From: Gemmatimonadaceae bacterium
GTDB lineage: Bacteria > Gemmatimonadota > Gemmatimonadetes > Gemmatimonadales > Gemmatimonadaceae
DNA length: 64,000 nt
Direction of reading: 5' to 3'
Assembly: GCA_046263215.1 (NCBI GenBank)
Contig: JBHELH010000318.1
Coordinates: forward strand, 778 to 64,777
Position 1 is the first letter of the stretch, and every line of letters starts with the position of its first letter. The notes below the pieces were generated by a model, which worked only from the letters and a program-made list of their open reading frames with translations, was not told where the DNA came from and ran no database searches. The translations under genes were made by a program, and so were the position numbers. This document shows, in pieces, positions 4,825-63,572 of this stretch.

Positions 4825-5177
4825 CGGGAAGAACGTTACTCGGAAGACGGCGGAAGAGGGCGGAAGAGCGGGGAAGAGCGGGCACGCGGATGGCCGCGGA
4901 GGCAACCGCGATGGCCACGGATAACTCCGCGGGGGGTCCCGACTCCTCTCGCCGGCCCGAGAGAAGACCTTGGCTACACCCCCGGGACGCCACGGAGCGA
5001 GGGCGCTAGTCTCCTCGGCCAGTAGCGTCCCGAGCGTGTATAAGCAAAAGCATCGCCCGGGCTCGTGGCGGTATGCAGGCCCGACAGCCGAGGAGCCATC
5101 CGCGGCCATCGCCCTTCATCAATCCGCGCTCGTCCGCGTCCGCGCCCTTCCCCGGAACGACGTCGCTCTTCCGCTCT
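4825..5177. repeat. Composite nested-palindromic element, copy A (outer + middle modules)
   Basis: Tandem decamers (CGGAAGACGG CGGAAGAGGG CGGAAGAGCG GGGAAGAGCG), then CACGCGGATGGCCGCGGA and GAGAAGACCTTGGCTACACCCCCGGGACGC. Mirrored partners follow (AAGCATCGCCCGGGCTCGTGGCGG, ATCCGCGGCCATCGCCCTTCATCAATCCGCGCTCGTCCGCG, CGCTCTTCCGCTCTT). It shares these blocks with copies at 20161, 23330, 48672 and 62568. Confidence 0.9.
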
Positions 5178-9063: not shown

Positions 9064-9113
9064 GAAGGGCAGACGCCAGACGCCCGCGCAGGTAACGTCG
9101 AGGCGCCGGCTTG

Positions 9114-10827: not shown

Positions 10828-10854
10828 CGACTGCGGACTGCAGACTGCAGTCGG
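10828..10854. repeat. Short GACTGCG-type palindromic hairpin between DUF218 and GT4 genes
   Basis: CGACTGCGGACTGCAGACTGCAGTCGG contains the perfect palindrome GACTGCAG-A-CTGCAGTC. It uses the same heptamer as the repeats at 18029, 54268 and 61031. Confidence 0.7.
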
Positions 10855-17630: not shown

Positions 17631-18002
17631 TCACTTGGTCCTCGACGACAATACGAACCGGTTTCCATCGGCGTCCTTGAAGATCGCGGCCGTTCCCCAG
17701 TGCTCGGTCTTCGGCGGCATCGGGAACTCGACGCCCTTCGCCGAGAGCTCGTCGTAGGTCCGCTGCACGTCGTCGGCGACGAAGGTGATGTTGGTGACGT
17801 CGCCGATGCGGTCCTCCCAGCCGTCCGGGGTGAAGAGGACGATCCGCGTGTCGGCGCCGGGGATGCGCATCTCGATCCAGCGCTGCTTGTCGTCAAACGG
17901 CTGGTCGGTGGCGACGATGAAGCCGAGCTTCTCGCTGTAGAACGCGATCGCGCGATCCTGGTCGCGCACCGGCACGTTGGCGAACTTGATCCCTTTGATC
18001 AT
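17631..18002 (-). CDS. VOC/glyoxalase-bleomycin resistance family protein
   Basis: Start re-set to ATG 18002 (MIKGIKFANVPVRDQDRAIAFYSEKLGF...). The 123-aa length is typical of single-module VOC proteins. The upstream 30 codons of the track ORF run through a repeat arm. Confidence 0.9.
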   Translation of the reverse strand: MIKGIKFANVPVRDQDRAIAFYSEKLGFIVATDQPFDDKQRWIEMRIPGADTRIVLFTPDGWEDRIGDVTNITFVADDVQRTYDELSAKGVEFPMPPKTEHWGTAAIFKDADGNRFVLSSRTK

Positions 18003-18028
18003 CGCGGCACCCCCGGAGCGAGAGACGG

Positions 18029-18268
18029 TCGACTGCGCTCGACTGCGGACTGCGCACTGCGGACGAGGCGCCGCGAGCACCGGTTGTCGCACGTTCGGCG
18101 GCGTCGCCTGTCTGGAGGAATCTCCGGTGCCCCGGCGGCGAAGTCCAGTCCGGAGAGTGGTGCTCGGATAGCGTTTGCTATAGTATTCGCTACCACACTG
18201 CGTGCAGGCTGGCGACCGACCGAGGCCGTTAGCCCGCAGTCCGCAGTCCGCAGTCGGCCGTCCGCAGC
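18029..18268. repeat. GACTGCG-armed inverted repeat bracketing a divergent intergenic region
   Basis: The left arm is CGACTGCGCTCGACTGCGGACTGCGCACTGCGGAC (18029-18064). The right arm is CCGCAGTCCGCAGTCCGCAGTCGGCCGTCCGCAG (18233-18268). About 170 bp of unique sequence lies between them. Confidence 0.8.
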
Positions 18269-18320
18269 CCCTCTTCCCCTGTCGAGTCTAGCCGTCGACG
18301 ACTACGTCGTTCGCACGCTG

Positions 18321-19101: not shown

Positions 19102-20159
19102 TGGCGCTCGCGGCGCCGGATACTCGACCTCGCCGCCGTCGCCGACGCACTGCGTTGATCTGGACTGTCGCCCTCCTTCTCGGCCTCCCGCTGCTCCTCG
19201 CCCTGTGCGCGTGGCTCTACGTCGTGCACATGCCGGGCGAGACAGGACGCCGGACGCTGTCGTCGCTCACCCCCGCGCAGCGGGAGGTACGGCGGCGGCT
19301 CGAGGCGCATGTACGCGAGCTCGCGGGCCGCATCGGTGAGCGGAACAGCGTGCACTACGAGGCGCTCGAGCAGGCGGCCGCGTACGTCGAGCGCGAGCTG
19401 GCGGCGCTCGGCTACACCGTGACGTCGCAGCGTTGGACGGGCGCCGGCGGCCAGGCGTTTCGGAACCTCGAGGTAACGCTCCCGGGCCGCGCGCGCCCGG
19501 CGGAGGTCCTCGTCGTCGGCGCGCACTACGACTCGAACCGCGGGACACCTGGCGCCGACGACAACGCGAGCGGCGTCGCGGCGATGATCGAGCTGGCCCG
19601 ACTGCTACGTGCCGACAGCGCGGCCGGCCACGCGCGCACGATCCGCTTCGTCGCGTTCGCGAACGAGGAGGTGCCGTTCTTCGGGACCGCCGACCAGGGC
19701 GCGCGTCGCTACGTCGCGGCGCTGAAGGAGCGTGGCGACGACGTACGCTCGATGCTCTCGATCGAGACGATCGGCTACTACGCGACCGGCCCGAAGACGC
19801 AGGTGTACCCGACGCCGCTCAACTGGTTCTACCCCGACACGGGCAACTTCATCGGGTTCGTCGGCGATCTGTCCTCGCGCGCGCTGGTGCACGAAGCGAT
19901 CGGCGCCTTCCGGAGACACACGTCGTTCCCGTCACACGGCGCCGCCGCTCCGGCGTCGATTCCGGGGGTCGGCTGGTCCGACCACGAGGCGTTCTGGGCG
20001 GCGGGCATTCCGGCAGTCATGATCACGGACACGGCGCCGTTCCGGAATCCCTACTACCACACGCGCGGCGACACGCCGGACCGGCTCGACTACGAGCGCA
20101 TGACTCACGTCGTCGACGGGCTAGTGGCGGTGGTCCGACACCTGGCGCGGGCTGACTGA
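19101..20159 (+). CDS. M28 family metallopeptidase, membrane-anchored
   Basis: Start re-set to ATG 19101. An N-terminal anchor (ALIWTVALLLGLPLLLALCAWLYV) is followed by M28 motifs VGAHYDS, GADDNASGVAAMIELARLL, FVAFANEEVPFFG and SDHEAFW. Confidence 0.9.
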   Translation: MALAAPDTRPRRRRRRTALIWTVALLLGLPLLLALCAWLYVVHMPGETGRRTLSSLTPAQREVRRRLEAHVRELAGRIGERNSVHYEALEQAAAYVERELAALGYTVTSQRWTGAGGQAFRNLEVTLPGRARPAEVLVVGAHYDSNRGTPGADDNASGVAAMIELARLLRADSAAGHARTIRFVAFANEEVPFFGTADQGARRYVAALKERGDDVRSMLSIETIGYYATGPKTQVYPTPLNWFYPDTGNFIGFVGDLSSRALVHEAIGAFRRHTSFPSHGAAAPASIPGVGWSDHEAFWAAGIPAVMITDTAPFRNPYYHTRGDTPDRLDYERMTHVVDGLVAVVRHLARAD

Positions 20160-20160
20160 C

Positions 20161-20570
20161 GGGGGAAGGGCGACGGCGTTTCGAGTTGTTCGTTGGGGCA
20201 CGCGGACGAGCGCGGATCGATGAAGGGCGGTGGCCGCGGATCGCTCCTCTGCGCTACAAGACTCCACGCCGCGACGAGCCCGGACGATGCTTTGGCTACA
20301 CCGCCGGGAGGCTACTCTCGCCCCTTCTGTCACCCCGCAGGAGCGAGCGAAGCGAGCGAGTGCGGGGCACCCGCGCAGCGGGCCGGCGCGTCCCGGGGGT
20401 GTAGCAAAGGTCTTCTCGCGGGCCGGCGAACGGAGCCCGGAACGTCCGCGCGGCTATCCGCGCGTGTTCGCCCTTCGCCGATCCGCGGCCATCCGCGTGC
20501 GCGCTTTTCCCCGCTCTTCCGCGCTCTTCCGCGCTCTTCCGCGCTCTTCCCCGAAACGCCCCTCGCCCGT
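20161..20570. repeat. Composite nested-palindromic element, copy B (inverted relative to copy A)
   Basis: Begins immediately after the M28 stop. Contains GGCGTTTCG...CACGCGGACGAGCGCGGATCGATGAAGGGCGGTGGCCGCGGAT, one arm of the core hairpin (CTGTCACCCCGCAGGAGCGAGCGAAGCGAGCGAGTGCGGGG), GCGTCCCGGGGGTGTAGCAAAGGTCTTCTC, and four CGCTCTTCCG decamers. It ends in CCGAAACGCCCCTCGCCC. Confidence 0.9.
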
Positions 20571-23329: not shown

Positions 23330-23812
23330 TCGGAGGGGACGGCGGAAGGGCATGGCGTTGTTCGTTGGGCACGGACGAGCGCGGATCGGCGAGGGGCGAA
23401 AGCGCGGATGGCTCCGCGGCCGTTCGGGGTCCCCCTCGCCGGGCCTTGAGAAGACCTCGCTACCGCCGCTCGGGACGCTCCGACCCCGCCGTGTTGTCAT
23501 CCCGCACGAGCGCAGCGAGTGTCGGGGTCTACTACGCGCGGGGCGTGGCCACCTACGGAGCAGTGCAAGTAGATCCCGACACTCGCTCGCTTCGCTCGCT
23601 CCTGCGGGATGACAAGAGAGGGCGAGAGAAGCCTCCCGGGGGGTGTAGCCACAGCATCCTCCGAGCTGTGGCCGTTGGGCATCTCGTAATGCCGAGGGAC
23701 TATCCACGCGTTTTCGTCTTTCGCCGATCCGCGCTCGTCCGCGCGCCGAGCGATCAAGCCCAACGATTACCTGGAAACGCCTTCGCCCTTCCGCCTTCCT
23801 CGCCCGACCCAG
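23330..23812. repeat. Composite nested-palindromic element, copy C (full, with complete core hairpin)
   Basis: Ends are GGCGGAAGGGCATGGCGTTGTTCGTTGGGCACGGACGAGCGCGGATCGGCGA ... TCGCCGATCCGCGCTCGTCCGCGCGCC...GGAAACGCCTTCGCCCTTCCGCC. The middle module is GAGAAGACCTCGCTACCGCC.../GGGGGGTGTAGCC. The core hairpin is at 23496-23613. The right end overlaps the last codons of the permease gene. Confidence 0.9.
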
Positions 23813-25161
23813 AACAGGTACACCGGCACCCCCGCCACCAGGATCAAAACGCCAACCCCCGCGTCGCGCGGGAACTGGTAAACGGTGCTCAGCGCCAACG
23901 TCCAGAACGCCGCCACGAAGATCAACGTCGTCACCGGGTGGCCCGGGGTCCGAAGACGAAAGGCGGTGTCCGGGGATCGCGGCTCGCCGGCGCCGCGCCG
24001 CTCTCGCGCCCGAAACACCAGCAGCGCCGCTCCCGTCAACCCGAAGAACATCGCGTCGATGGCCACGACGTAGTTGAGGATGCGCTCGTAGGGGAGGAAC
24101 GCGACGATCGAGGCAACGAGGCCCTGGAGCGCGATCGCGACCGCCGGCGCGTGCGTGCGCGGGTGCAGTGAGCCGACGCGACGGAAGAAGACGCCGTCGC
24201 GCGCCATCGCGAAGTAGACGCGCGGCGCGGTGAGCATGCCGTGACTCAGGTAGCCGACGGTGGAGACGGCGATGCCAGCGGCGATGAGGCCTGCGCCGGT
24301 GTCGCCGAGTGCGGCGCGCATCACGGCCGTCGCGGGTGCCGGCGTCGCGGCGAGACCGGAGGGCCCGAGCGCGCGGAGGCAGACGATGTTCACCGCGAGA
24401 TAGAGCACGACGACCCCGATCACGCCGACCAGCAGGCCGCGCGGGAGATCGCGCCGCGGGTCCTTGAGCTCACCAGCGACGAAGCTCGCGTTCTGCCAGC
24501 CGCCGAAGGCGAAGAGAACGGGAACGAGCGCGGCGGCGAACGACGCGGGTAGCGGGCGCTGGGCGGGCGGCGATGCAATGGCGTCGGGAGGCGTCGCTCC
24601 GCCTGTGGCGAGCCAGCCGATCGTCACCAGCGCGACGATCGCCGCGATCTTCAGGACCATCAATGCGCTCTGGACGTTGCTGCCGGTGCGCACGCCGAGC
24701 CAGTTCACGATCGTGAGAACCGCAAGCGTCGCGACGGCGATCGCCTGCTCCGGCGCCGCGAATCCGGCCAGCTCGTTGAAGTACCGCGCGAACGTCACCG
24801 CGACCGCCGCCATCCCGCCACTCTGGACCACGAGCAAGAGCGTCCAGCCGTAGAGGAATGCCGCCACCGGGTGAAAGGCGTCGCGGATGTACGCGTAGAC
24901 GCCGCCCACGGCGGGGCGGAGCGCCGCAAGCTCCGCGTACACGAACGCGCCAATCAACGCGACGACCCCGCCGGCCGCCCATGCGCCGAGGATCAGGGCA
25001 GGCGACTGGACGTGGCGAGCGACGACGTGCGGACTGACGAAGATGCCGGCGCCGATGATGCCGCCCATCACGAGCATCGTCGCGTCGAAGGCGTTGAGCC
25101 GCCGGGCGAGGCCGGGGTCCGCCGGGGGCGGCGTGGCGGGTCGGGGCGTGGCCGGCGACAT
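23767..25161 (-). CDS. APC-family amino acid permease
   Basis: Start re-set to ATG 25161 (MSPATPRPATPPP...). Typical APC N-terminal signature LNAFDATMLVMGGIIGAGIFVSP, and about 12 hydrophobic helices. Confidence 0.9.
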   Translation of the reverse strand: MSPATPRPATPPPADPGLARRLNAFDATMLVMGGIIGAGIFVSPHVVARHVQSPALILGAWAAGGVVALIGAFVYAELAALRPAVGGVYAYIRDAFHPVAAFLYGWTLLLVVQSGGMAAVAVTFARYFNELAGFAAPEQAIAVATLAVLTIVNWLGVRTGSNVQSALMVLKIAAIVALVTIGWLATGGATPPDAIASPPAQRPLPASFAAALVPVLFAFGGWQNASFVAGELKDPRRDLPRGLLVGVIGVVVLYLAVNIVCLRALGPSGLAATPAPATAVMRAALGDTGAGLIAAGIAVSTVGYLSHGMLTAPRVYFAMARDGVFFRRVGSLHPRTHAPAVAIALQGLVASIVAFLPYERILNYVVAIDAMFFGLTGAALLVFRARERRGAGEPRSPDTAFRLRTPGHPVTTLIFVAAFWTLALSTVYQFPRDAGVGVLILVAGVPVYLFWVGRGRRKGEGVSR

Positions 25162-30300: not shown

Positions 30301-30395
30301 GAGGGGTGGAGGGTGGAGGGTGGAGCGAGCTTCGGTCAGGAAGGCCTCGGCATGAGGGGGACGGCCTTCTGCACCCTCAACCCTCCACCTTCCAC
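30301..30395. repeat. GGTGGAG-armed hairpin spanning the His-kinase stop and the regulator start region
   Basis: The plus-strand left arm is GAGGGGTGGAGGGTGGAGGGTGGAG (30301-30325) and the right arm is CACCCTCAACCCTCCACCTTCCAC (30372-30395). An inner stem is GAAGGCC/GGCCTTC. Confidence 0.8.
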
Positions 30396-41127: not shown

Positions 41128-42246
41128 ATGACCTTCAGAATCGCGCTCGCCACTCTCGCGCTGCCCGCAGTGCTCGCGGCGCAGCAGTCGTCCGGCGCGT
41201 CGTCGCGCACGCCTGCTGGTACACGTACGGCACGTCCCGTCCTCATCGACTCCGCGCGGGCTCGCATGCTCTATGTGAGCAACCGGCCGGACGACCACCC
41301 GGTCCCCGACTTCGACGCACAGCTTCGCAGCAAGGCGCGTACGGACAGCATCTACCGCGCGCACGCGCGCGGGAACTACGAGTTCCAGAAGGTGAAGTAC
41401 CGGAGCCGCGCCGATGGCATGGAGATCCCCGCGTACGTCTTTCAGCCGCTTCAGCGGCGCGGCGCGCGCGGGCACGCCGCGATGATCTGGGTGCACGGGG
41501 GCGTGCACGGCGACTGGAGCGAGGGAATGATGCCGTTCGTGAAGGAGGCGGTGCAGCGCGGCTACGTCATCGTCGCTCCCGAGTACCGCGGGTCGACCGG
41601 CTACGGCCCGCAGCACTACTTCGCGATCGACTACGGCGGCAAGGAAATCGACGACGTGATCAGCGCGTACGACTACATCACGCAGAGCCTCCCGCACGTC
41701 GACCCGGACCGCGTGGGCATGATGGGCTGGAGCCACGGCGGATTCATCACCGCGCACTCGCTCTTCCGCGACCAACACCCGTTCAAAGCCGGCGCGGCGA
41801 TCGTTCCGGTCACGAACCTGCTCCACCGGCTGAGCCGAAAGGGACCCCGGTACCAGCGGTCCTTCGCGACGCAGCAGACGATCCAAGGGCTCCCGTTCGA
41901 GAAGCCCGAGGAGTACATCCGGCGCTCGCCGCTCTTCCACGTCGACAAGCTGCGCGTGCCGATCCTCGTCCACGTCGCGACGAACGACGAGGACGTGAAC
42001 TTCGACGAGGACGTGCAACTCGTCTACGCGCTCCGATCGCAGAAGCCCGACCTCGCCGAGACCAAGGTCTACGTCGACCCCGCGCCGTGGGGGAACAGCG
42101 TCGGCCACGCCTTCAGTCGCCGCGTCGACCTGGCGACGCTTCAGCGCGTGGACAGCCCGGAGCAGATCGACTCGTGGAACCGAACGTGGGTGTTCTTCGA
42201 GTGGATCTTGCGACCGTACGAGGATCGGTCCAAGGCGAACAGATAG
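41128..42246 (+). CDS. S9 (prolyl oligopeptidase family) serine peptidase / alpha-beta hydrolase, exported
   Basis: 372-aa ORF with a signal peptide, nucleophile elbow GWSHGG, and a typical YRGSTGYG region upstream. Confidence 0.9.
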   Translation: MTFRIALATLALPAVLAAQQSSGASSRTPAGTRTARPVLIDSARARMLYVSNRPDDHPVPDFDAQLRSKARTDSIYRAHARGNYEFQKVKYRSRADGMEIPAYVFQPLQRRGARGHAAMIWVHGGVHGDWSEGMMPFVKEAVQRGYVIVAPEYRGSTGYGPQHYFAIDYGGKEIDDVISAYDYITQSLPHVDPDRVGMMGWSHGGFITAHSLFRDQHPFKAGAAIVPVTNLLHRLSRKGPRYQRSFATQQTIQGLPFEKPEEYIRRSPLFHVDKLRVPILVHVATNDEDVNFDEDVQLVYALRSQKPDLAETKVYVDPAPWGNSVGHAFSRRVDLATLQRVDSPEQIDSWNRTWVFFEWILRPYEDRSKANR

Positions 42247-42306
42247 CGAGCTGCGAGCTGTGAACCAGAGGCCCGACGGTCCTAGCTCGCAGCTCACAGC
42301 TCGCAG
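42246..42306. repeat. GCGAGCT-armed hairpin between convergent genes
   Basis: GCGAGCTGCGAGCTGTGAACCAGAGGCCCGACGGTCCTAGCTCGCAGCTCACAGCTCGCAG. The right arm supplies the last codons (..KNCEL stop) of the MpaB-like gene. Confidence 0.8.
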
Positions 42307-43073
42307 TTCTTATCGAGACCACGCACGTGTCCCAAGTGCTCTCGCGGTACCAACGCGAGCCGTGCGACCGGAGCGAGGCGGAGGTGTCTGAGCGCGCGGT
42401 ACGCGGCGATCGCGGGCCGCGTCCACCCTGTGCGGCGGGGGAGGCGCAGCAGGTCGGCGACGAGTCGCGGCGAGAGCAGCGCCTGAAGGTGTCGGAGGAG
42501 CCCGTACCGCCAGGGACCGAGCTGCTCGCGGTAGCGCGCGTACAACGCCGCCGTGTGTTCACTGTACGCGAGGTCATCGCGCATGTGTCGCTCGCGGTCG
42601 GGTCGCCAGTCGGCGTACGTCGGCGGGAGCCGCGCGATAGCGAGGCCTTCTCCGACGCGACGGAAGACGTCATACAGGTCGTCGCGCTCCGCTGGCGTGA
42701 GCGCACCGCGCAGCAGCGTCTCCGCGCGCTCGGAGTAGTCGATGAGCAGGTAGAGGACATCGCGATGGGCCCAGTCGGGGATTTGCGCTCCGCGCGACTG
42801 CTCGACGGCCGCGTGGGCCGTGCGAATCCGCGCGAGCGTCTGCTCCGCAGTGGCCCGGCTCGCGAAAACGATCTCCTGAGCGTACGCCGCCGTGCGGAAG
42901 AGGCGTCCGATTGGGTCGGCGGGGATCGCGCCGGTGAAGAAGAGCCAGTCGACCGCCCGATTCAACGCGAACTCCGCCGCCGCGCCCGCGAAGACGAGGA
43001 GCACGGCGTCGGCGTCGCCCCAAATCCGTCGCACTACCGACCCCCGGGGGACAAACGCGTCCGGCGACGTCAC
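42294..43073 (-). CDS. DUF2236 / MpaB-family oxygenase-like protein
   Basis: Start re-set to GTG 43073, overlapping the upstream stop (GTGA). Family-like N-terminus GSVVRRIWGDADAVLLVFAGAAAEFALNRAVDWL. Confidence 0.8.
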   Translation of the reverse strand: MTSPDAFVPRGSVVRRIWGDADAVLLVFAGAAAEFALNRAVDWLFFTGAIPADPIGRLFRTAAYAQEIVFASRATAEQTLARIRTAHAAVEQSRGAQIPDWAHRDVLYLLIDYSERAETLLRGALTPAERDDLYDVFRRVGEGLAIARLPPTYADWRPDRERHMRDDLAYSEHTAALYARYREQLGPWRYGLLRHLQALLSPRLVADLLRLPRRTGWTRPAIAAYRALRHLRLAPVARLALVPREHLGHVRGLDKNCEL

Positions 43074-47483: not shown

Positions 47484-48671
47484 ATGACGGCCCGACTCTA
47501 TTACACGGATTCCTATCTGACGACGTTCGACGCCCAGGTCGTCGAGCGCGGCGAGGCCGGGCGCCGCGTCTACCTCGATCGCACGGCGTTCTATCCGACG
47601 TCGGGCGGACAGCCGGCCGACGCCGGGACGATCGACGGCATCCAGGTCGCCGACGTGGTCGATGAGGGTGAGCGTATCGCCCACATGCTCAGCGAGCCGC
47701 TCGCCGACACCACCATCGGTGTGTCAGGAGCGATCGACTGGTCGCGCCGCTTCGACCACATGCAGCAGCACACTGGGCAGCACCTGCTGTCGGCCGTGAT
47801 CGCCGAGATGCTCGGCCACCAGACCGTCAGCGTGCACTTCGGCGCCCACGCGTCGTCCCTCGACCTGGACGTCGATTCGGTCGGGCGGGAGCATGTCGTC
47901 GCGGTCGAGAGACGAGCGAACGAGCTCGTCGTCGCCAACCGGCTGGTCACGATCTCGTTCGAGGAGGCGGCGTCGGTGGACGGGCTTCGCAGAGCGTCAG
48001 CGCGAGAAGGGACGCTCCGCGTCGTCGCGATCGAGGGTGTCGACCGCAGCGCGTGCGGCGGAACTCACGTGCGCGCGACGGGCGAGATCGGTCCGATCCT
48101 CGTCCGGAAGATCGATCGGGTGAAGAAACAGGTGCGGCTGGAGTTCGTGTGCGGGCTGAGAGCGGTGCGCCGCGCGCGCGCCGACTTCGAGCTACTGTCG
48201 CGGCTCGGGCAGGGGCTCTCGGCGTCGATCGACGAGATTCCGGCGCTCGTCGAGTCGCAGGCCGATCGGCTGCGTGCGGCCGACGGGCAGCGTCGGCGGC
48301 TGGAGGCCGAGCTGCATGCGTATCGCGCACGGCTCCTGTACGAGGCTGCCGAGCGCGACGAGTCCGGCGTGCGCCGCGCGGTGCAACGCCGCGAGACGGG
48401 ATCGCTCGAGGCGCTTCGCGGGCTCGCGCAGGCGTACTGCGTTCTCCCCAAGGCAGTGCTCATCGGTGCCGTCGACGATCCGCCGGCGGTTCTCCTCGCC
48501 GCATCGGAGGATTCCGGGATCGACGCGGGACGCGTGCTCAAGGCGGCCTTAGCGAGCGTCGGCGGCCGGGGCGGCGGATCGCCGCGCATGGCGCAGGGAA
48601 GCGTGCCGGGCGCGGAAGTCATCCCGAAAGTGATCGAGGCAGTGGTGGAGGCGGTGCGTGCGGCGAGGTAG
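47484..48671 (+). CDS. alaX: AlaX-L type alanyl-tRNA editing protein (AlaRS second additional domain + DHHA1)
   Basis: 395-aa ORF with N-terminus LYYTDSYLTTFDAQV, zinc/editing motifs HMQQHTGQHLLSA and CGGTHV, and a C-terminal GGGSPRMAQG DHHA1-like motif. Confidence 0.9.
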   Translation: MTARLYYTDSYLTTFDAQVVERGEAGRRVYLDRTAFYPTSGGQPADAGTIDGIQVADVVDEGERIAHMLSEPLADTTIGVSGAIDWSRRFDHMQQHTGQHLLSAVIAEMLGHQTVSVHFGAHASSLDLDVDSVGREHVVAVERRANELVVANRLVTISFEEAASVDGLRRASAREGTLRVVAIEGVDRSACGGTHVRATGEIGPILVRKIDRVKKQVRLEFVCGLRAVRRARADFELLSRLGQGLSASIDEIPALVESQADRLRAADGQRRRLEAELHAYRARLLYEAAERDESGVRRAVQRRETGSLEALRGLAQAYCVLPKAVLIGAVDDPPAVLLAASEDSGIDAGRVLKAALASVGGRGGGSPRMAQGSVPGAEVIPKVIEAVVEAVRAAR

Positions 48672-48840
48672 GAGGGCGGAAGGGCGAGGGCGTTGCGGGG
48701 AAGAGCGGGAAGAACGCGCACGCGGATGGCCGCGGAGGAAACTGCGATGGCCGCCGAGAGCCCCGCGGGGTGCTCCGGGCTCCGCGTGCACGCTCTTCCC
48801 CGCTCTTTCCCGAAACGCACAACGCCGTCGCTGTTCCGCC
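48672..48840. repeat. Composite palindromic element, copy D (minimal, outer module only)
   Basis: GGAGGGCGGAAGGGCGAGGGCGTTGCGGGGAAGAGCGGGAAGAACGCGCACGCGGATGGCCGCGGAGG...CCGGGCTCCGCGTGCACGCTCTTCCCCGCTCTTTCCCGAAACGCACAACGCCGTCGCTGTTCCGCCC. It starts immediately after the alaX stop. Confidence 0.9.
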
Positions 48841-53881: not shown

Positions 53882-54220
53882 ATGAACTCTCTCATCTGCG
53901 AAGCGATCCGGAAGATGCGCCTGCTGATGTTCGGCTACGGCGACTTCGTGCGCGTTGTCGAGCCGCACATGTTCGGGGTGAACAGTGCAGGGCACGAGAT
54001 GCTGAGCGCTTGGCTGCGGCCGGGGCACAGCCGGAGCGATCCGGACGGTGGGTGGCGGAACTACCTCACGTCGGACATCACGAACTTGCAGATGCTCGAC
54101 GAAACATTTGCCCGGCCGCGCGAGGGGTTCAACGCGGCCGATCCGCGGATGCGCGAGATTTACTGCCAGCTCGGAGCGACCGGCGCGGCAGTCGCGGCTC
54201 GCCCTGACGAGAGCCGGTGA
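53882..54220 (+). CDS. Small stand-alone WYL-like (Sm/SH3-type barrel) protein
   Basis: 112-aa ORF. The pattern LLMFGYGDFVRVVEPHMFGVNSAGHEMLSAWL...GGWRNYLTSDITNLQMLDETF matches the WYL-domain logic (R-V-EP, aromatic-x-L strand, F/L-x-x-I-x-x-L-x-x-L-x-x-F). Confidence 0.65.
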   Translation: MNSLICEAIRKMRLLMFGYGDFVRVVEPHMFGVNSAGHEMLSAWLRPGHSRSDPDGGWRNYLTSDITNLQMLDETFARPREGFNAADPRMREIYCQLGATGAAVAARPDESR

Positions 54221-54267: not shown

Positions 54268-54373
54268 ACGACTGCGGACTGCGGAGTGCGGACTAGAACC
54301 CCCGGGATGCCCCTGTCACCGGCTCGGAGCGTCCCAGGGATTTGTGTCCGCAGTTCGCAGTCCGCAATCGGAC
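54268..54373. repeat. GACTGCG-armed hairpin with conserved core, copy 1
   Basis: GACGACTGCGGACTGCGGAGTGCGGACTAGAACCCCCGGGATGCCCCT...GAGCGTCCCAGGG...GTCCGCAGTTCGCAGTCCGCAATCGGAC. The core and arms are homologous to 61031-61160. Confidence 0.85.
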
Positions 54374-54384: not shown

Positions 54385-55275
54385 TCACCCCCTCACGAGA
54401 ATCAAGTATCGCGACCCGGCCCAGAACTGATCGGGCGCAGTGACGCGCAGCGTGCCGGCCACCTTGCCCCCGTCCACCGTATCGGGCCTCACCAACTCGA
54501 TGCTGTGGCGGGACACAATCCGGTATCGGCCCGGCGGGAGCGGGATCGTGCGCGTCTTCGACATGTCGATCGCATTGAACGCGCCAGGCGGCAGGCGGCG
54601 CGCCGGCTGGATCGAACGCGGACCGGCGACGAGGTAGCGACGGCCGCCCTCGCGCTCGATCACGCCGCGCTCGAGGAGCTCCTTCTCAGTCGCGGCGACG
54701 TAGTAGACGGTGTTCGCCGAATCGCTGAGGCGGGCGAGGCGCGCGGCGAGGCGTGCGGTGTCCGCGGCGAGCGTCGCGACCGTGCCCTCCAGCGCGGCGA
54801 TCCGGGCGTTGAGCGCACGCTGCTCCTCCACCGCTGTCGTGCGCAGCGAATCGAGTCGCGCCGTCAGCGACGCCGCGCGCCCGTTGAGCGCTGACTCGCG
54901 GCCCGCCAGCCGCGTCACCCGCTGCCGCGCGCGCTCCAAGCGCGCTTCGCTCGAGTCGAGCTGCGCGAGGATGTCGCGCACGCGCCGGGCGAGCGCCTCA
55001 CGCTCGCGCTTCGCCTCGGCGATCTTGGACTCACCCGCCGCGCCCGTGCTCAGCTCCACGCGCAGCCGGCCCGCGCGCGCGAGCTCGTTGTTGAGCTCAC
55101 CCACGAACTCCATAACGGCCATCGATTCGGCGAGGAGCGTCGCCTGCGCGACGTCGACGCTGTCGCGCGGCGCCGGCGCGTTGCGCGTGCCGCGGCCCGC
55201 CACCACCGACTCCGCGGCGCCGTCGCTGCACGCCGCCGCGCCGGCGATGGCGGCAACCACCCAGACCCGTTTCAT
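54385..55275 (-). CDS. Coiled-coil lipoprotein, unknown function
   Basis: ATG 55275 gives a MKRVWVVAAIAGAAAC lipobox. A long Ala/Arg/Leu/Glu heptad-like central region is followed by a beta-rich C-terminal ~100 aa. Confidence 0.75.
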   Translation of the reverse strand: MKRVWVVAAIAGAAACSDGAAESVVAGRGTRNAPAPRDSVDVAQATLLAESMAVMEFVGELNNELARAGRLRVELSTGAAGESKIAEAKREREALARRVRDILAQLDSSEARLERARQRVTRLAGRESALNGRAASLTARLDSLRTTAVEEQRALNARIAALEGTVATLAADTARLAARLARLSDSANTVYYVAATEKELLERGVIEREGGRRYLVAGPRSIQPARRLPPGAFNAIDMSKTRTIPLPPGRYRIVSRHSIELVRPDTVDGGKVAGTLRVTAPDQFWAGSRYLILVRG

Positions 55276-55556
55276 TGGAACCTCTCCCATGCTCTACGGG
55301 TCCCGTAGCAGTACTTGCTCGGGATCCGTCCAGTTTCCCCCGTTGCGGCGCGGCTGCGCCGCCGCTCACCCGCTTCGCGGGTACCCGCCGACGCGCAGAA
55401 TAGTGCGCGCGTGCGCGGCGGAGCGACGTGACGAGGATCACGCGTGCGGCTGCGGGCTGCGCGCCGCGGGCCGTGGCCCTGGCGCCGAGGCAGCGGCGTG
55501 ACAGGTTTCATTGACGCAGGATCCCCACAGCCGTCGCTCAGATCGAGGTCGGAGAC

Positions 55557-58841: not shown

Positions 58842-58845
58842 CGGG

Positions 58846-58980
58846 GCTTGAGAGTTTGTCGGCTTGTGGGCTTGTGGGCTTTTGAGCGGGCGTTGTTAGG
58901 AAGCTCCTCGGCATAAGAAAGGGTCCCCAGTCGGGGACCCTTTCCTCTCAAGCTCTCAAGCCCACAAGCTCACAAGCTTG
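58846..58980. repeat. GCTTGTGG/GCTTGAGA-armed hairpin enclosing a bidirectional terminator
   Basis: The left arm is five 8-nt units (GCTTGAGA GTTTGTCG GCTTGTGG GCTTGTGG GCTTTTGA). The inner hairpin is AAAGGGTCCCCAGTCGGGGACCCTTT (58918-58943). The right arm is CTCAAGCT CTCAAGCC CACAAGCT CACAAGCT. Confidence 0.85.
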
Positions 58981-59989: not shown

Positions 59990-61036
59990 ATGATCAAGAG
60001 ACGTAACATTCTGGCATTGCTGCTGGCCGGCGGTCTGGTCAGTTGCGGGGAGACGCCCGGCATTCGGGACGTTTCGCCGAGCTCGGCCGTGGACATGCTG
60101 GCCGGCGTCGTCGAGAACGTCGCGAGCGCCGTGACGGGGAAGGGTCACCTCGGCTTCGACACCGGGATCTATCCGGGCGACGAGACGATGCGTGTGTGGC
60201 GCGCGACCGCACCGTACAAGTGGGTCGGCTATTACCTCCCGGCTCCCTGCCACAAGGACGACTCCTGGGCCGGCAAGCGTGCCCAGCTCACCGACATGGG
60301 CTGGGGGCTCGCGGTCATCTACGTCGGTCAGCAAACGTGGTCGGGCGTCCCCGCCAAGCACTCGACGGTCTACCGCACGACGTACAAGACCAAGACGGTC
60401 ACCAAGTACGTCAGCAAGCGCGTGAAGACCTACGTCAAGAAGAATGGCAAGCGCGTGCCGAAGTACGTGACGAAGCGTGTGCCGACCCGGGTCAAGCAGC
60501 GGGTTCCAGTCCGCACGCCGGTGCGCGTCGCGTTCGAGGAGTCGAAGCACGGACTCATGAGCTGCCAGCGGAACCTCGTCACGCAGTCGCGTGGCGCGCT
60601 CGAGGCGGCTGACGCGATCGCGAAGACCGCCGGCGAGGGCTTCCCGCGCGGCACGGTGATCTTCCTCGACATCGAGCGGATGGATGTGACGCCGAAGGCG
60701 ATGCGTGACTACTACAAGGAGTGGGTCGCGCGCGTGCTCGCGGACGGACGCTTCGTGCCGGGGATCTACGCGCACACGCACAACGCCTCGCTCATCTACC
60801 GGGACGTGAAGGCGGTCTACGCGGGTGCTGGTCGAACCGAGGAGCCGCCGTTCTGGATCGCCGGCGGGCGCAACTTCGCGCCGACGAAGGCGCCGAAGGA
60901 GATCGGGCACGCGTTCGCGGCCGTGTGGCAGGGCGTGCTCGACGTCGTCCAGGAGTGGAACGGCCACAAGGTCAAGATCGATGTCAACGTCGCTGAGACG
61001 CCGTCGCCGTCGCTGCACCGGGTCGAGGCGGACTAG
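59990..61036 (+). CDS. DUF1906 (Rv2525c-like glycoside-hydrolase-like) lipoprotein with Lys/Val/Thr-rich insertion
   Basis: 348-aa ORF with lipobox LLLAGGLVSC and DUF1906 opening GFDTGIYPGDETMRVWRATAPYKWVGYYL. It is a paralog of the next gene apart from a ~65-aa basic insert (aa ~122-186). Confidence 0.85.
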   Translation: MIKRRNILALLLAGGLVSCGETPGIRDVSPSSAVDMLAGVVENVASAVTGKGHLGFDTGIYPGDETMRVWRATAPYKWVGYYLPAPCHKDDSWAGKRAQLTDMGWGLAVIYVGQQTWSGVPAKHSTVYRTTYKTKTVTKYVSKRVKTYVKKNGKRVPKYVTKRVPTRVKQRVPVRTPVRVAFEESKHGLMSCQRNLVTQSRGALEAADAIAKTAGEGFPRGTVIFLDIERMDVTPKAMRDYYKEWVARVLADGRFVPGIYAHTHNASLIYRDVKAVYAGAGRTEEPPFWIAGGRNFAPTKAPKEIGHAFAAVWQGVLDVVQEWNGHKVKIDVNVAETPSPSLHRVEAD

Positions 61037-61160
61037 ACCAGACTAGACCGACTGCGGACTGCGGACTGCGGACTGCGGACTAGAACCCTCGGGATGCTCC
61101 TAAAGCGCTAGAAGCGTCCCGAGGCCGTGAGTCCGCAGTTCGCAATCCGCAGTCGTTTTT
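61031..61160 (+). terminator. GACTGCG-armed hairpin with conserved core, copy 2, ending in T5 (likely terminator between the paralogs)
   Basis: GACTAGACCAGACTAGACC(GACTGCG)x4 GACTAGAACCCTCGGGATGCTCCT...GAAGCGTCCCGAGG...GTCCGCAGTTCGCAATCCGCAGTCGTTTTT. Confidence 0.75.
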
Positions 61161-61189: not shown

Positions 61190-62116
61190 GTGACTAATCC
61201 ACTACGCTTCGCATTGCTGCTCGTGCTCGCCTCGGGTTGCGCGCGGGTCGCGACGACACGCCCTCGGCCGGTAACGCAGAGCTTCGCCGGTTTCGACGTC
61301 GCCATTTATCCGGGCGAGGCCGCGATGCGCGCGTGGCTGCGGCCGAACTCGCCCTACTACTGGGTCGGCTACTACCTCCCCGCGCCCTGCCACCGCGACA
61401 CGTCGTGGGCCGGTAAGCGCGCGACCCTCGCCGGGATGGGTTGGGGACTCGCGGTGCTCTACGTCGGTCAGCAGGCGTGGGAAGGCGTCCCCGAACGGGT
61501 CGCGGCGGCAGACACCGCGCGTCCGGCGGGAGACACGGCGGGCGCCGCGGCGGGCGTGCAACGCAACATCGTGTGTTCGCGCACGCTGCTCACCGCGGCG
61601 CAGGGATTAGCCGAGGCGAACGACGCCATCACCAAAGCATCCGCCGACGGCTTCCCGCGCGGCACGCACATCTTCCTCGACATCGAGCGGATGACGACGA
61701 TCCCGCAGGCGATGCGGGACTACTACCGCGCGTGGGTGGCGCGCGTGCTGGCCGACGGGCGTTTCCGTCCCGCGATCTACGCGCACCAGCGCAACGCGGC
61801 CGAAATTTACGGGGACGTTCGCGCGACATTCGACGCGGCCGGCGTCCGCGACGAGCCGTCATTTTGGGTGTCGAGCCCCGCAGCGGCCACCCTGACCAGC
61901 TCGCCGTCCGAGGTCGGCTTCCGTTTCGCGCGTGTTTGGCAGCACGCGCTCGATGCGTCGCAGACGTTCAACGGCGTCACGTTGCGGCGAATCGACGCGA
62001 ACGTCTCCGACAGCCCGTCGCCGTCGGCGGCAGGGCCTGTCATCGCGAACTCAGGGCAGAGCGCGGCACGCGGGCCCGCGGGAGCGCCGCCTGGGCTGGT
62101 GACGGTCTCGCCGTGA
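61190..62116 (+). CDS. DUF1906 (Rv2525c-like) lipoprotein, paralog 2
   Basis: Start re-set to GVG 61190 read as GTG (VTNPLRFALLLVLASGC lipobox); the track start 61127 lies inside the repeat arm. Long blocks are collinear with the upstream paralog (WVGYYLPAPCH.D.SWAGKRA.L..MGWGLAV.YVGQQ.W.GVP; GFPRGT.IFLDIERM...P.AMRDYY..WVARVLADGRF.P.IYAH). Confidence 0.85.
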   Translation: MTNPLRFALLLVLASGCARVATTRPRPVTQSFAGFDVAIYPGEAAMRAWLRPNSPYYWVGYYLPAPCHRDTSWAGKRATLAGMGWGLAVLYVGQQAWEGVPERVAAADTARPAGDTAGAAAGVQRNIVCSRTLLTAAQGLAEANDAITKASADGFPRGTHIFLDIERMTTIPQAMRDYYRAWVARVLADGRFRPAIYAHQRNAAEIYGDVRATFDAAGVRDEPSFWVSSPAAATLTSSPSEVGFRFARVWQHALDASQTFNGVTLRRIDANVSDSPSPSAAGPVIANSGQSAARGPAGAPPGLVTVSP

Positions 62117-62567: not shown

Positions 62568-63032
62568 TCGGGCTGCGAGGGCGGAGGGGCGAGGGCGTTT
62601 CGGGGAAACAGCGTGGCCGCGGATGACGCGGATGACGCGGAAACGCGCTGATCGCTCCGTGGGACGGTCCGGCCTCCGCTCGCTGGCCCCTGGAAGACCT
62701 TTGCTACACCCCCGGGACGCCACGAGGCACCCTCCCTGTCATCCCGCAGGAGCGAGCGAAGCGAGCGAGTGTCGGGATCTACTTTACGTGCCCTGTGGGT
62801 AGCCACGCTGCAGTGGAAGTAGATCCCGACACTCGCGGCCGCATGCGGCGGCGCTCCTGCGGGATGACAGGGACGGGGCGAGGGTGGCTCCCCGCGGGTG
62901 TAGCCGAGGCATCGTCCGGGCTCGTGGCGGCGCGGAGCCTGGAGCGCAGAGGGGCGATCCGCGCTCTTCCGCGTCATCCGCGTCATCCGCGGCCGCGCCG
63001 TTCGCGAACGACGCCCTCGCCCTTCCGCCGTC
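62568..63032. repeat. Composite nested-palindromic element, copy E (full; best-preserved core hairpin)
   Basis: GCGAGGGCGGAGGGGCGAGGGCGTTTCGGGG...GGCCGCGGATGACGCGGATGACGCGG...GGAAGACCTTTGCTACACCCCCGGGACGC...core hairpin 62736-62870...GGGTGTAGCCGAGGCATCGTCCGGGCTCGTGGCGG...CCGCGTCATCCGCGTCATCCGCGGCC...CGAACGACGCCCTCGCCCTTCCGCCGTCGC. Confidence 0.9.
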
Positions 63033-63038
63033 GCTTCC

Positions 63039-63572
63039 CTACCGCTTCGGCAGATCGGGACAGTTCTCTCGCCGCCGGGTGTCGGTCAATCCGAAGATGC
63101 GCCAGCCTGCGGGGCGGCGAACCATCTGGAAGGCATCGACTCCGCAGTGGTTCTTTCGGTCGCCGATGTAGAAGGTGTAATCGACCCACGCGACCGCGTA
63201 GGGACCGTCGATGAGGACGCGCTCGTTGGCGATTCGCTCGTCATAGACTTCCGCGTGCGGCGTGCCGATCGCGCGCAAGAACATGCCGAGCGAGTCGTCG
63301 GAGACGGTGAGTGCGCCCTGACGGACGCCGACGCTCTGGAGGCGCGCCCCGGGCTCGAAAAGCGCCCGCGCCGCGCTGCTGTCCTGCGCGCGCATCGCGT
63401 CGAACAGACGCTGGACGACGTCGACCACCTCGCGCTCGCGAGCACCAAGTGTGGCGGTCTGCGACCGAGAGCTCGCGGCAACGGTTGCCGATGACGAGGC
63501 GCTACTGCGCGGCGCCGGCACCGTACAGGCGGCGGCGAGCAAAGCTGTGGCGGCGAGAGGTGCGCAACGCAT
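63039..63572 (-). CDS. NTF2-like (SnoaL/DUF4440-type) lipoprotein
   Basis: Start re-set to ATG 63572 (MRCAPLAATALLAAAC lipobox). NTF2-like core: VVDVVQRLFDAMRAQD...ERVLIDGPYAVAWVDYTFYIG...GVDAFQMVRRPAGWRIFGLTD. Confidence 0.75.
   Translation of the reverse strand: MRCAPLAATALLAAACTVPAPRSSASSSATVAASSRSQTATLGAREREVVDVVQRLFDAMRAQDSSAARALFEPGARLQSVGVRQGALTVSDDSLGMFLRAIGTPHAEVYDERIANERVLIDGPYAVAWVDYTFYIGDRKNHCGVDAFQMVRRPAGWRIFGLTDTRRRENCPDLPKR

What the first reader, a model, noticed from the sequence alone, without database searches (positions are those of the whole stretch)
54268..54373. GACTGCG-armed hairpin shares a conserved non-repetitive core with a second copy 6.7 kb away
Copies at 54268-54373 and 61031-61160 share more than their heptamer arms. 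They share the inner sequence GCGGACTAGAACCC(C/T)CGGGATGC(C/T)CCT ... (G/A)AGCGTCCC(A/G)GG ... TCCGCAGTTCGCA(G/A)TCCGCA(A/G)TCG. The GGGATGC/GCGTCCC segments can pair (with G-U), giving a stem nested inside the heptamer stem. The apical ~20 nt differ between the copies. The motif GGGACGC also occurs at the equivalent position of the composite elements (CCCGGGACGC). That hints the hairpin families are related or recognised by the same factor.
Basis: seen in the sequence. Interest (0 to 1): 0.6.

Follow-up and report, generated by a model that had tools for sequence, protein, structure and literature searches.

The report
Dispersed hairpin repeat with heptamer arms
The two look-alike hairpins are copies of a previously undescribed family of ~100-130-bp palindromic repeats that sits behind genes in a lineage of soil Gemmatimonadaceae; it resembles the REP/REPIN elements of other bacteria, and most likely spreads by copying and folds into a strong stem-loop at transcript 3' ends.

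Summary
The copies at 54269-54370 and 61049-61155 share heptamer arms and a non-repetitive core, GGACTAGAACCC(C/T)CGGGATGC ... GCGTCCC(A/G)(G/A)GG. Their flanks are unrelated and their apical ~20 nt differ. Both fold into nested hairpins of -75 and -85 kcal/mol.

This is not a local duplication. Arm-plus-core sequence occurs on dozens of contigs with different flanks in each of several soil metagenomes. The same core also occurs with other heptamer arms (GATTGCG, GAGTGCG, CTGAGGA).

A relative (~85% protein identity) carries the element at both orthologous sites. One copy is inverted, and the heptamer is changed on both arms. Other relatives have solo arms, empty sites or unrelated hairpins there.

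All six placed copies lie at gene 3' ends. In one relative a core hairpin occupies a site where the window has a canonical bidirectional terminator.

An extended motif, CTA-N-A-(N)-CC-NN-CGGGA-N-GC, links the hairpins to the window's composite elements: 7 hits against 0 in shuffles.

Best reading: a REPIN/MITE-like dispersed palindrome serving as a 3'-end hairpin. The mobilising enzyme, transcription and termination could not be tested. No Rfam family matches. The family is moderately novel.

The parts
54269..54370 (+). Copy A, whole hairpin. Left arm is 3 heptamer units (GACTGCG GACTGCG GAGTGCG), 54270-54290. Left core is GACTAGAACCCCCGGGATGC, 54291-54310. The variable apex is 54311-54327. 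Right core is GCGTCCCAGGGATTTGTG, 54328-54345. Right arm is TCCGCAGTTCGCAGTCCGCAATCG, 54346-54370.
   Evidence: (CM 90.5 bits)
61049..61155 (+). Copy B, whole hairpin. Left arm is 4 x GACTGCG, 61050-61077. Left core is GACTAGAACCCTCGGGATGC, 61078-61097. The variable apex is 61098-61113. Right core is GCGTCCCGAGGCCGTGAG, 61114-61131. Right arm is TCCGCAGTTCGCAATCCGCAGTCG, 61132-61155.
   Evidence: (CM 91 bits)
61031..61049 (+). Two degenerate GACTAGACC units to the left of copy B. The first contains the TAG stop codon (61034-61036) of the upstream gene. GAC-TAG (Asp-stop) is also the gene end in many orthologues, so this part is at least partly ancestral coding sequence.
61156..61160 (+). TTTTT run directly after the base of copy B's stem. 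This is the only copy seen with a U-tract.
54291..54310 (+). Family signature (left core) in copy A. The window copies are identical at 19 of these 20 positions, and L194 is identical to copy B. It is the best-conserved part of the family in metagenomes.
61078..61097 (+). Family signature (left core) in copy B.

Best explanation
The two loci are copies of a dispersed palindromic repeat family (REPIN/MITE-like) of a soil Gemmatimonadaceae lineage.

**Anatomy of a copy**
1. An outer stem made of 2-4 tandem heptamers (GACTGCG here) and their complement.
2. An asymmetric internal loop: CTAGAAC on the 5' side, GTG(A/T)G-like on the 3' side.
3. A conserved GC-rich inner stem of about 12 bp: CCYCGGGATGC / GCGTCCCRRGG.
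4. A 15-25-nt apex that is free to vary.

**Shown**
- The family is multi-copy, with unrelated flanks.
- Base pairing is maintained by compensatory change.
- Arms and core are separable modules.
- Occupancy, orientation and arm sequence differ between close relatives.
- All placed copies are at gene 3' ends.

**Inferred**
- New copies arise by copy-and-paste of the whole hairpin, by a trans-acting enzyme or by template switching or gene conversion between hairpins, preferentially into 3' intergenic or terminator positions.
- Arm length and arm sequence then drift by heptamer slippage, with quasi-palindrome template-switch repair keeping the two arms complementary.
- Transcribed as part of the upstream gene's 3' UTR, the element forms a -75 to -85 kcal/mol stem-loop. 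This ends transcription or blocks 3' exonucleases and insulates neighbouring or convergent genes. It is therefore tolerated, or selected, where ordinary terminators otherwise sit.
For: **Multi-copy with different flanks**
- Laying three soil metagenomes on copy A gave 26, 9 and 23 contigs covering 54268-54314. The upstream loose ends disagree (agreement 0.46-0.68).
- On copy B, summed depth over the left core is 170-550 at typical contig depths of ~5. Flanks are again diverse and start after 2, 3 or 4 heptamer units.
- 31-mers of the element occur in soil, rhizosphere and air metagenomes from more than 12 studies.

**Same core, other arms**
- L194 has GATTGCG arms and L195 has CTGAGGA/CCGAGGG arms.
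- L198 has GAGTGCG arms.
- L213:2201-2279 has a CTGAGGA arm.

**Orthologous sites in relatives**
- L198 has both sites filled. Site A is inverted, and the heptamer is changed on both arms.
- L213 site B has GACTGCG-type arms but an unrelated interior.
- Site A is empty in L199 and L217, holds a solo arm in L218 and L211, and holds another hairpin in L212.

**Structure is maintained**
- 88% of cells pair, against 31-42% when partners are slid.
- Six pairs carry double changes (2 of 500 shuffles reach this).
- The covariation score is reached by 0 of 500 shuffles.

**3'-end position**
- A, L195, L198A and the L213 copy lie between convergent genes.
- B (with its orthologue L198B) and L194 lie directly after a stop codon, in sense orientation.

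**Interchangeable with terminators**
- At the site after the BNR gene the window has a canonical bidirectional terminator inside octamer arms.
- L217 has a U-tract terminator inside GCGGGTA arms. L213 has the CCTCGGGATGC core hairpin.
- L214 has only a 9-bp hairpin at site B.

**Background and side evidence**
- High-GC bacteria have longer terminator stems and shorter U-tracts (PMC13613805).
- REPINs show the same conserved ends, variable spacer, compensatory changes and nesting (PMC3116915).
- Contigs carrying close homologues of the neighbouring gene are mostly 1.3-3 kb, as expected if short-read assemblies break at these repeats.
Against: - No transposase or RAYT was found. The flanking genes are ordinary, and the source genome beyond 64 kb was not available.
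- No target-site duplication could be defined.
- Only copy B is followed by a U-tract. The others are not.
- No RNA data exist for the locus, so transcription and termination are untested.
- Both strands fold equally well, so a DNA-level role (cruciform, protein site) is not excluded.
- The left core is 2.5-8 times better represented than the right core. It matches at 27 of 29 positions between A and B, against about 17 of 24 for the right core. A pure hairpin function does not predict this; it suggests sequence-specific recognition.
- None of 185,579 representative genomes contains the core, so family size per genome is only extrapolated.
- With 4 of 6 placed copies between convergent genes, the positional bias is only weakly significant (binomial about 0.04, my calculation).
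Confidence: 0.6

Rival explanations
1. Local segmental duplication: the two copies are similar only because a nearby stretch was duplicated.
For: The copies are 6.7 kb apart. Copy B lies between two tandem paralogues (families D1 and D2).
Against: Similarity stops at the arm boundaries and the flanking genes are unrelated. Many further copies with other flanks exist in metagenomes and on other contigs.
Confidence: 0.02
2. Purely local terminators. Each hairpin evolved in place as a terminator, its arms grew by slippage, and similarity between sites is convergence.
For: Repeat-armed hairpins with many different heptamers or octamers surround ordinary terminators at 3' ends in the window and in relatives. 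Hairpins at orthologous sites differ in sequence between relatives.
Against: Convergence cannot give a 21-nt non-repetitive core. Nor can it give an identical imperfect right arm (CGCAGTT CGCAATC CGCAGTC), for which no alternative base reaches 10%, at dozens of unlinked sites. Copying is required.
Confidence: 0.1
3. DNA-level protein recognition site. The conserved left core (GGACTAGAACCCYCGGGATGC) is bound by a nucleoid, recombination or regulatory protein. The hairpin/cruciform is the scaffold, and the RNA is irrelevant.
For: Conservation is asymmetric: left core far above right core. The motif is shared with the composite elements. Both strands fold equally. REP/BIME elements are known protein-binding sites (background as stated in PMC2817692, abstract seen).
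Against: No candidate protein was found. Position at gene 3' ends and replacement by terminators in relatives are not predicted. In both independent co-directional contexts the CTAGAAC side is on the sense strand.
Confidence: 0.15
4. A structured non-coding RNA gene (sRNA, riboswitch or ribozyme) with its own function.
For: The structure is very stable and shows covariation. The internal loop is conserved.
Against: No Rfam family matches at gathering scores, and relaxed searches give only generic hairpin hits far below threshold. The apex is unconstrained. The element is a simple rod, has no promoter-like site, is multi-copy with variable arms, and is inverted at an orthologous site.
Confidence: 0.05

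Closest known systems
REPINs (REP doublets forming hairpins; Bertels & Rainey 2011, PMC3116915)
   Same: Two conserved ends in inverted orientation. A spacer that varies in sequence. A long hairpin in ssDNA or RNA. Compensatory changes. Extragenic and multi-copy. Insertion into or beside other such elements, giving nested or composite clusters.
   Different: The ends here are tandem heptamers plus a non-palindromic 20-nt core, not short REP palindromes. The simple hairpins have CTAG rather than a GTAG tag; the related composite elements do have CTAC/GTAG. The left end is much better conserved than the right. No RAYT gene is known for this lineage.
Convergent heptamer repeat pairs of Xanthomonas (GGGAATC; Rehm et al. 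2015, PMC4692102)
   Same: Tandem heptamers on opposite strands facing each other in intergenic DNA, 70-75 pairs per genome. Length and sequence vary between close species while the type is preserved.
   Different: Those are G-rich and were studied as G-quadruplex formers, and the passages of that paper read here mention no conserved core between the arms. GACTGCG has no G-tracts, and here a specific core is the family signature.
Intrinsic (Rho-independent) terminators of high-GC bacteria
   Same: A GC-rich stem-loop directly after the stop codon or between convergent genes. Copy B ends in TTTTT. High-GC species have longer stems and shorter U-tracts (PMC13613805). The element is replaced by canonical terminators at orthologous sites.
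   Different: The stem is 35-45 bp with an internal loop. Most copies have no U-tract. It is a dispersed repeat, not a unique sequence. Termination is untested.
MITEs and other palindromic intergenic repeats (Correia/NEMIS, ERIC, RUP, SMAG; overview PMC3184786)
   Same: About 100-150 bp, terminal inverted repeats, non-coding, intergenic, foldable, with presence/absence polymorphism between strains.
   Different: No target-site duplication and no parent insertion sequence were identified. The inverted repeats are microsatellite arrays that change unit sequence between lineages.
Cyanobacterial STRR heptamer repeats and small dispersed repeats (Elhai et al. 2008). Recalled from my own knowledge: the paper is not in the library and is only cited in PMC3116915.
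   Same: Short conserved units embedded in tandem heptamer contexts, with nesting of small palindromic elements.
   Different: Different phylum and sequences. I could not check the details, so this is a lead only.

Membership tests
REPIN / REP (RAYT-mobilised) | Two conserved inverted ends separated by a less conserved spacer, together forming a hairpin | tested here: met
REPIN / REP (RAYT-mobilised) | High copy number in extragenic space | tested here: inconclusive
   There are 2 copies in 64 kb and dozens of contigs per metagenome with distinct flanks. All 6 placed copies are intergenic. No whole genome was available for a census.
REPIN / REP (RAYT-mobilised) | Each end contains a short imperfect palindrome (REP) with an unpaired GTAG (or CGTC) tag | tested here: not met
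   The halves are heptamers plus CTAGAACCCYCGGGATGC and are not self-palindromic. The tag is CTAG. The related composite elements carry GCTACA...TGTAGC, but there it is paired.
REPIN / REP (RAYT-mobilised) | A cognate RAYT (Y1 transposase) gene flanked by the same repeats | not testable with these tools
   The source genome beyond the window is not available. The genes next to the elements are not transposases. Scans of representative genomes found no core.
MITE | Terminal inverted repeats | tested here: met
   The arms are inverted repeats of 21-28 nt.
MITE | Target-site duplication flanking the element | tested here: inconclusive
   I saw no consistent direct repeat at the boundaries when reading the flanks of the six copies by eye; this was not a formal search. 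Filled and empty sites are too diverged to fix boundaries.
MITE | An autonomous insertion sequence with the same ends | not testable with these tools
   No genome-wide data were available.
Intrinsic terminator | GC-rich stem-loop at the 3' end of a transcription unit | tested here: met
Intrinsic terminator | U-tract immediately 3' of the stem | tested here: not met
   Only copy B has TTTTT. Copy A, L194, L195, L198A and L198B do not. The simple scan does not call them.
Intrinsic terminator | Transcript 3' ends at the element | not testable with these tools
   No RNA run holds the locus.
Xanthomonas-type convergent heptamer repeats | Tandem heptamers in convergent orientation in intergenic DNA | tested here: met
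   paper
Xanthomonas-type convergent heptamer repeats | G-tract heptamer able to form G-quadruplexes | tested here: not met
   GACTGCG and CGCAGTC contain no G-runs.
Any Rfam RNA family | Match at the curated gathering score | tested here: not met

The most novel reading that the evidence does not exclude
The conserved left core would be the recognition site of an unknown hairpin-specific enzyme or copying process. This process would move nested palindromic 'cassettes' between 3' intergenic hairpins in Gemmatimonadota. The microsatellite arms would act as interchangeable homology or landing pads. The arms would be kept complementary by template switching. In effect this would be a system of mobile, exchangeable terminator hairpins, evolving in concert within each genome and distinct from RAYT/REPIN or IS-derived MITEs.
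Probability: 0.2. Interest if true: 0.7.

Novelty: new variant of a known kind. Interest (0 to 1): 0.45.

Why it matters
- **A new phylum for this kind of element.** In the searches run here I found no description of dispersed palindromic repeats in Gemmatimonadota, a major soil phylum. This family, with its nested composite relatives, appears to fill a sizeable share of intergenic space.
- **A practical consequence.** The repeats probably explain why short-read assemblies of these organisms fragment. Contigs carrying close homologues of a neighbouring gene are mostly 1.3-3 kb.
- **A natural experiment in hairpin evolution.** The modular build (conserved core, swappable microsatellite arms, free apex) and the concerted change of both arms between relatives show how long hairpins are maintained.
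- **A biological question.** The data raise the possibility that terminators themselves can be dispersed, exchangeable elements.
- **Useful if termination is confirmed.** The elements would then help operon and 3'-end annotation in high-GC genomes that lack U-tract terminators.

Tried and rejected
**Searches that found nothing real**
- Exact and relaxed core patterns in 185,579 representative genomes gave none or only chance hits: an AT-rich Burkholderiales MAG, Marinacidobacterales and others.
- The family is also absent from viral contigs, phage records and plasmids. Plasmid hits were arm-only matches in Paraburkholderia.
- The metagenome scan returned two real copies and one chance hit, L193.
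- BLAST of the core against about 1.8 Mb of fetched loci found nothing beyond 12-15-mers. An nhmmer run failed on file format and was not repeated.

**Searches that were not specific**
- (GACTGCG)3 occurs in more than 117 loci across many phyla, so the arms do not define the family.
- CCCGGGACGC with up to 1 mismatch is at chance level, so it was dropped as evidence in favour of a longer motif.

**Tests that were uninformative**
- Rfam at gathering and relaxed thresholds gave no family.
- The promoter/terminator scan does not handle such long stems.
- Laying reads on the interior alone recovered few contigs, because the apex varies.
- No RNA runs were available.
- A sliding-window energy scan of relatives' loci was swamped by GC-rich coding sequence.

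**Ideas considered and dropped**
- K-turn or sarcin-ricin readings of the internal loop were dropped: I compared the loop sequences with the motif consensus by eye and recalled knowledge and ran no tool test, and they do not fit.
- CRISPR, attC and tRNA-like readings have no supporting feature.

Full report
**1. The observation**

The window is about 70% G+C throughout. Its genes are most similar to those of Gemmatimonadaceae metagenome-assembled genomes. The best database relatives of two window proteins are 84-88% identical.

At 54269-54370 and 61049-61155 there are two elements with the same build:
- a run of GACTGCG heptamers (3 units in A, 4 in B);
- the non-repetitive sequence GACTAGAACCC(C/T)CGGGATGC;
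- about 20 nt that differ completely between the copies;
- GCGTCCC(A/G)(G/A)GG plus a short GTG-containing segment;
- the imperfect complementary arm GTCCGCAGTTCGCA(G/A)TCCGCA(A/G)TCG.

The alignment is near-identical in arms and left core and unrelated outside the arms. The 21-nt core, allowing 3 mismatches, occurs only at these two places, with none expected.

Both copies fold into one long hairpin with a nested inner stem: -74.9 and -84.7 kcal/mol as RNA, z = -7.6 and -9.8. The minus strand gives almost the same values, and both fold as ssDNA. The proposed GGGATGC/GCGTCCC pairing with one U.G is correct.

**2. Not a local duplication but a dispersed family**

The flanking genes are unrelated:
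- Copy A lies between the convergent genes 53882-54220 (+, no Pfam hit) and 54385-55290 (-, coiled-coil protein).
- Copy B lies directly after the stop codon of an Rv2525c-like glycoside-hydrolase-like gene (59990-61036) and before its tandem paralogue.

Soil metagenome runs that hold relatives of the window were laid on the elements.
- On copy A, 26, 9 and 23 contigs matched arm plus left core (54268-54314). They ran on into unrelated sequence on both sides.
- On copy B, summed depth over the left core was 170-550 at typical contig depths of about 5.
- Upstream flanks began after 2, 3 (commonest) or 4 heptamer units and disagreed with each other.
- Similarity was lost in the apex and partly recovered in the right core and arm.

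Words from the element occur in soil, rhizosphere and air metagenomes from more than a dozen studies.

Pattern scans added two full copies on JGI metagenome contigs. L194 has GATTGCG arms. L195 has CTGAGGA/CCGAGGG-type arms. Both have the same left core.

No representative genome of 185,579 species contains the core. Neither do phage, plasmid or viral collections.

Contigs carrying close homologues of the gene beside copy B are mostly only 1.3-3 kb. That is what one expects if short-read assemblies break at these repeats, and it may explain the family's absence from MAG-based collections.

**3. Behaviour at orthologous sites**

Contigs from relatives (80-88% protein identity) were fetched through neighbouring proteins.

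*Site B, between the two paralogues:*

| Locus | State |
|---|---|
| Window | (GACTGCG)4 plus core |
| L198 | homologous core (GGATTAAAACCCTCAGGATGC ... GCATCCCGACGG), but both arms are GAGTGCG/CGCACTC |
| L213 | GATTGCC/GACTGCG arms around an unrelated 75-nt interior |
| L214 | only a 9-bp hairpin |
| L215, L216 | no armed hairpin |

*Site A:*

| Locus | State |
|---|---|
| Window | full element |
| L198 | full element in the opposite orientation, GAGTGCG/GAATGCG arms |
| L218 | solo right-arm array GTCCGCAGTCCGCAATCCGCATCC |
| L211 | remnant AATCCGCAATCG |
| L199, L217 | empty |
| L212 | a different hairpin, GGGGGAGTGG...CCACTCCCCC |

*Site C, the convergent site after the 1094-aa BNR/sortilin-like gene:*

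| Locus | State |
|---|---|
| Window (58845-58975) | canonical bidirectional terminator (AAGAAAGGGTCCCC-AGTC-GGGGACCCTTTCC) inside octamer (GGCTTGTG) arms |
| L217 | U-tract terminator inside GCGGGTA arms |
| L218 | GGTGCTG-type arms |
| L211 | CCAGGTG arms |
| L213 | CCTCGGGATGC core hairpin with a CTGAGGA arm |

Three conclusions follow:
- A strong hairpin at these 3' sites is the conserved feature, and its sequence turns over.
- Arms and core are separable modules.
- The core hairpin can stand where a canonical terminator stands in a relative.

**4. Structure and conservation**

Six copies were aligned (A2). They give a consensus of 17 outer and 11 inner pairs.
- 88% of cells form standard pairs, against 31-42% when partners are slid by 1-3 columns.
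- Six pairs have changes on both sides (2 of 500 shuffles reach this).
- The covariation score is not reached by any of 500 shuffles.
- Most double changes are in the arms: the variable third heptamer position, GA(C/G/T)TGCG, changes together with its partner.

The sample is small, and the sequences were found through the core, so these numbers support pairing without proving an RNA-level function.

Conservation is asymmetric. The left core matches at 27 of 29 positions between A and B, the right core at about 17 of 24. In metagenomes the left core is 2.5-8 times better represented.

At the wobble position the left T alternates with C in up to about a third of the depth, while no alternative at the right G exceeds about 18% of the depth in X1, apart from about 50% in the low-depth run X7. 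So U.G alternates with C-G.

The right arm's specific imperfections (CGCAGTT, CGCAATC) show no alternative base above 10% among the contigs laid there. That points to copying of the whole unit rather than independent slippage. Perfect arms may, however, have been laid on the other side.

**5. Relation to other elements**

Covariance model R1 and direct scans show that repeat-armed hairpins are common in Gemmatimonadaceae and elsewhere, with many different heptamers. In the window they are at:
- 10829-10853;
- 18024-18269 (GACTGCG arms, 166-nt interior; its right end CCGAGGCCGTTAGCCCGCAG resembles copy B's);
- 30301-30395 (GGAGGGT arms);
- 42246-42311 (GAGCTGC arms);
- 58845-58975 (octamer arms).

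Related cores occur in MAG loci:
- L179 and L180: ACGGCCTCGGGA(A/G)GC-loop-GC(T/C)TCCCGAGGCCGT inside GGGGATG/GGGGAAT arms.
- L040: AAACCCCCGGAAGC...GCTTCCCGGGGGTTT inside GA(A/G)CTGC arms.
- L177: GAAGAACGACCTCGGGATGCTTC without heptamer arms, 150 nt downstream of the site-B orthologue.

The window's large composite elements are nested palindromes: 4860-5150, 20150-20560, 23360-23820, 48660-48830 and 62570-63050. Their inner inverted repeat is GGCTACACCCCCGGGA(C/G)GC.

The motif CTA-N-A-(N)-CC-NN-CGGGA-N-GC occurs 7 times in the window and never in 100 shuffles: in the two hairpins and at five composite sites. A metagenome contig shows an intermediate form (GGGCTACATCCG followed by TCGGGATGC, with GGGCTGC arms).

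The families are therefore related.

The composite at 62570-63050 is present at the orthologous site in L214 and absent in L213 and L215.

**6. What it is and how it probably works**

*Shown:*
- A dispersed, intergenic, palindromic repeat family with conserved ends and a free apex.
- It is maintained as a hairpin.
- It is polymorphic in presence, orientation and arm sequence between close relatives.
- It is located at gene 3' ends. Four of six placed copies lie between convergent genes. Both independent co-directional copies, B and L194, are in sense orientation directly after the stop codon.

*Inferred:*
- **(a) Spread.** Copying of the whole hairpin to new 3' intergenic sites, either by a trans-acting enzyme (as RAYTs are proposed to move REPINs; PMC3116915) or by template switching or gene conversion between hairpins that share arms.
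- **(b) Arm evolution.** Heptamer slippage, with quasi-palindrome template-switch correction keeping the two arms complementary. This is established mutational biology, recalled from my own knowledge and not tested here.
- **(c) Function.** A role, or at least tolerance, as a 3'-end RNA hairpin that terminates transcription or blocks exonucleases. This is consistent with longer stems and shorter U-tracts in high-GC bacteria (PMC13613805) and with the exchange against canonical terminators at orthologous sites.

*Against a simple terminator:* only copy B has a U-tract. *Against a purely structural role:* the left core is conserved beyond what pairing requires, which hints at sequence-specific recognition. 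Transcription could not be examined.

**7. Comparison with known systems**

- **REPINs are the closest analogue in behaviour.** Membership fails on the REP/GTAG feature and cannot be tested for the RAYT.
- **The convergent GGGAATC heptamer pairs of Xanthomonas** (PMC4692102) are the closest analogue for the arms. They are G-quadruplex-type, and the passages of that paper read here mention no conserved core.
- **MITEs** share size and inverted ends, but no target duplication or parent element was seen.
- **No Rfam family matches**.
- **Literature.** Full-text searches for dispersed or hairpin repeats in Gemmatimonas/Gemmatimonadetes returned nothing relevant among the listed hits. The REP survey PMC3733652 does not mention the phylum.

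**8. Verdict**

Its kind is familiar.

I rate it a new variant of a known kind: a REPIN/MITE-like palindromic repeat with microsatellite arms and a conserved asymmetric core, in an under-studied phylum. Interest is moderate at 0.45.

The main open points are the mobilising mechanism, the meaning of the left core, and whether the elements terminate transcription.

Noticed in passing
window 4860-5150, 20150-20560, 23360-23820, 48660-48830, 62570-63050: Large nested palindromic 'composite' elements of 170-480 nt. They have outer purine-rich arms (GGAAGGGCGAGGGCG...), GCGGATGAC-type repeat arms, an inner inverted repeat GGCTACACCCCCGGGACGC, and in some copies a further palindrome nested inside (GTCATCCCGCAGGAGCGAGCG...). 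The one at 62570-63050 is present at the orthologous site in L214 and absent in L213 and L215.
   Followed up: partly
window 58845-58975: A canonical bidirectional intrinsic terminator (AAGAAAGGGTCCCC-AGTC-GGGGACCCTTTCC) enclosed by octamer-repeat arms (GGCTTGTG x3 and complement), between convergent genes. Relatives have different heptamer arms around different inner stems at the same site (L217, L218, L211, L213).
   Followed up: yes
window 18024-18269: A GACTGCG-armed element with a 166-nt interior, upstream of the start of a minus-strand glyoxalase-family gene (17631-18002). Its right end, CCGAGGCCGTTAGCCCGCAG, resembles copy B's right core, but its left side does not. The interior contains an AT-richer stretch, TTGCTATAGTATTCGC.
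   Followed up: partly
window 30301-30395, 42246-42311, 10829-10853: Further repeat-armed hairpins with other units: GGAGGGT arms, GAGCTGC arms directly after the stop of a peptidase S9 gene, and a short GACTGCG/GACTGCA palindrome.
   Followed up: partly
loci L001-L117; plasmid hits H1-H4: (GACTGCG)3 or longer arrays occur in more than 117 representative-genome loci across many phyla (Streptomyces, Acidobacteriota, Planctomycetota, Chloroflexota, Cyanobacteria and others) and on Paraburkholderia fungorum megaplasmids. A minority are inverted pairs around short interiors. The heptamer arm is therefore not lineage-specific.
   Followed up: partly
L179:6205-6300; L180:3315-3405 and 9100-9200: A second core family in other Gemmatimonadaceae MAGs: GGGGATG/GGGGAAT heptamer arms around a near-perfect palindrome ACGGCCTCGGGA(A/G)GC-loop-GC(T/C)TCCCGAGGCCGT. 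It shares TCCCGAGGCCGT with copy B's right core.
   Followed up: partly
window 59990-61036 and 61190-62116: Tandem paralogues (76-77% DNA identity over parts) of an Rv2525c-like glycoside-hydrolase-like protein. The second starts with a lipoprotein-type signal (LASGC). A conserved motif, CGGTAYGNTTCTTCCGT, precedes the second gene in all relatives.
   Followed up: partly
one search hit table (homologues of window 59990-61036): Close homologues (79-88% identity) sit mostly on contigs of only 1.3-3 kb, little longer than the gene. This suggests that short-read assemblies of this lineage break at the flanking repeats.
   Followed up: no
window 20492-20553 and 48781-48812: A 10-nt periodic tract (CGCTCTTCCG repeated about 5 times) at one end of a composite element.
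   Followed up: no
window 53882-54220; L199:8800-8890; L211:2990-3200: The 112-aa gene left of copy A (no Pfam hit) appears only as a truncated or degraded remnant in some relatives, next to the variable site A.
   Followed up: no
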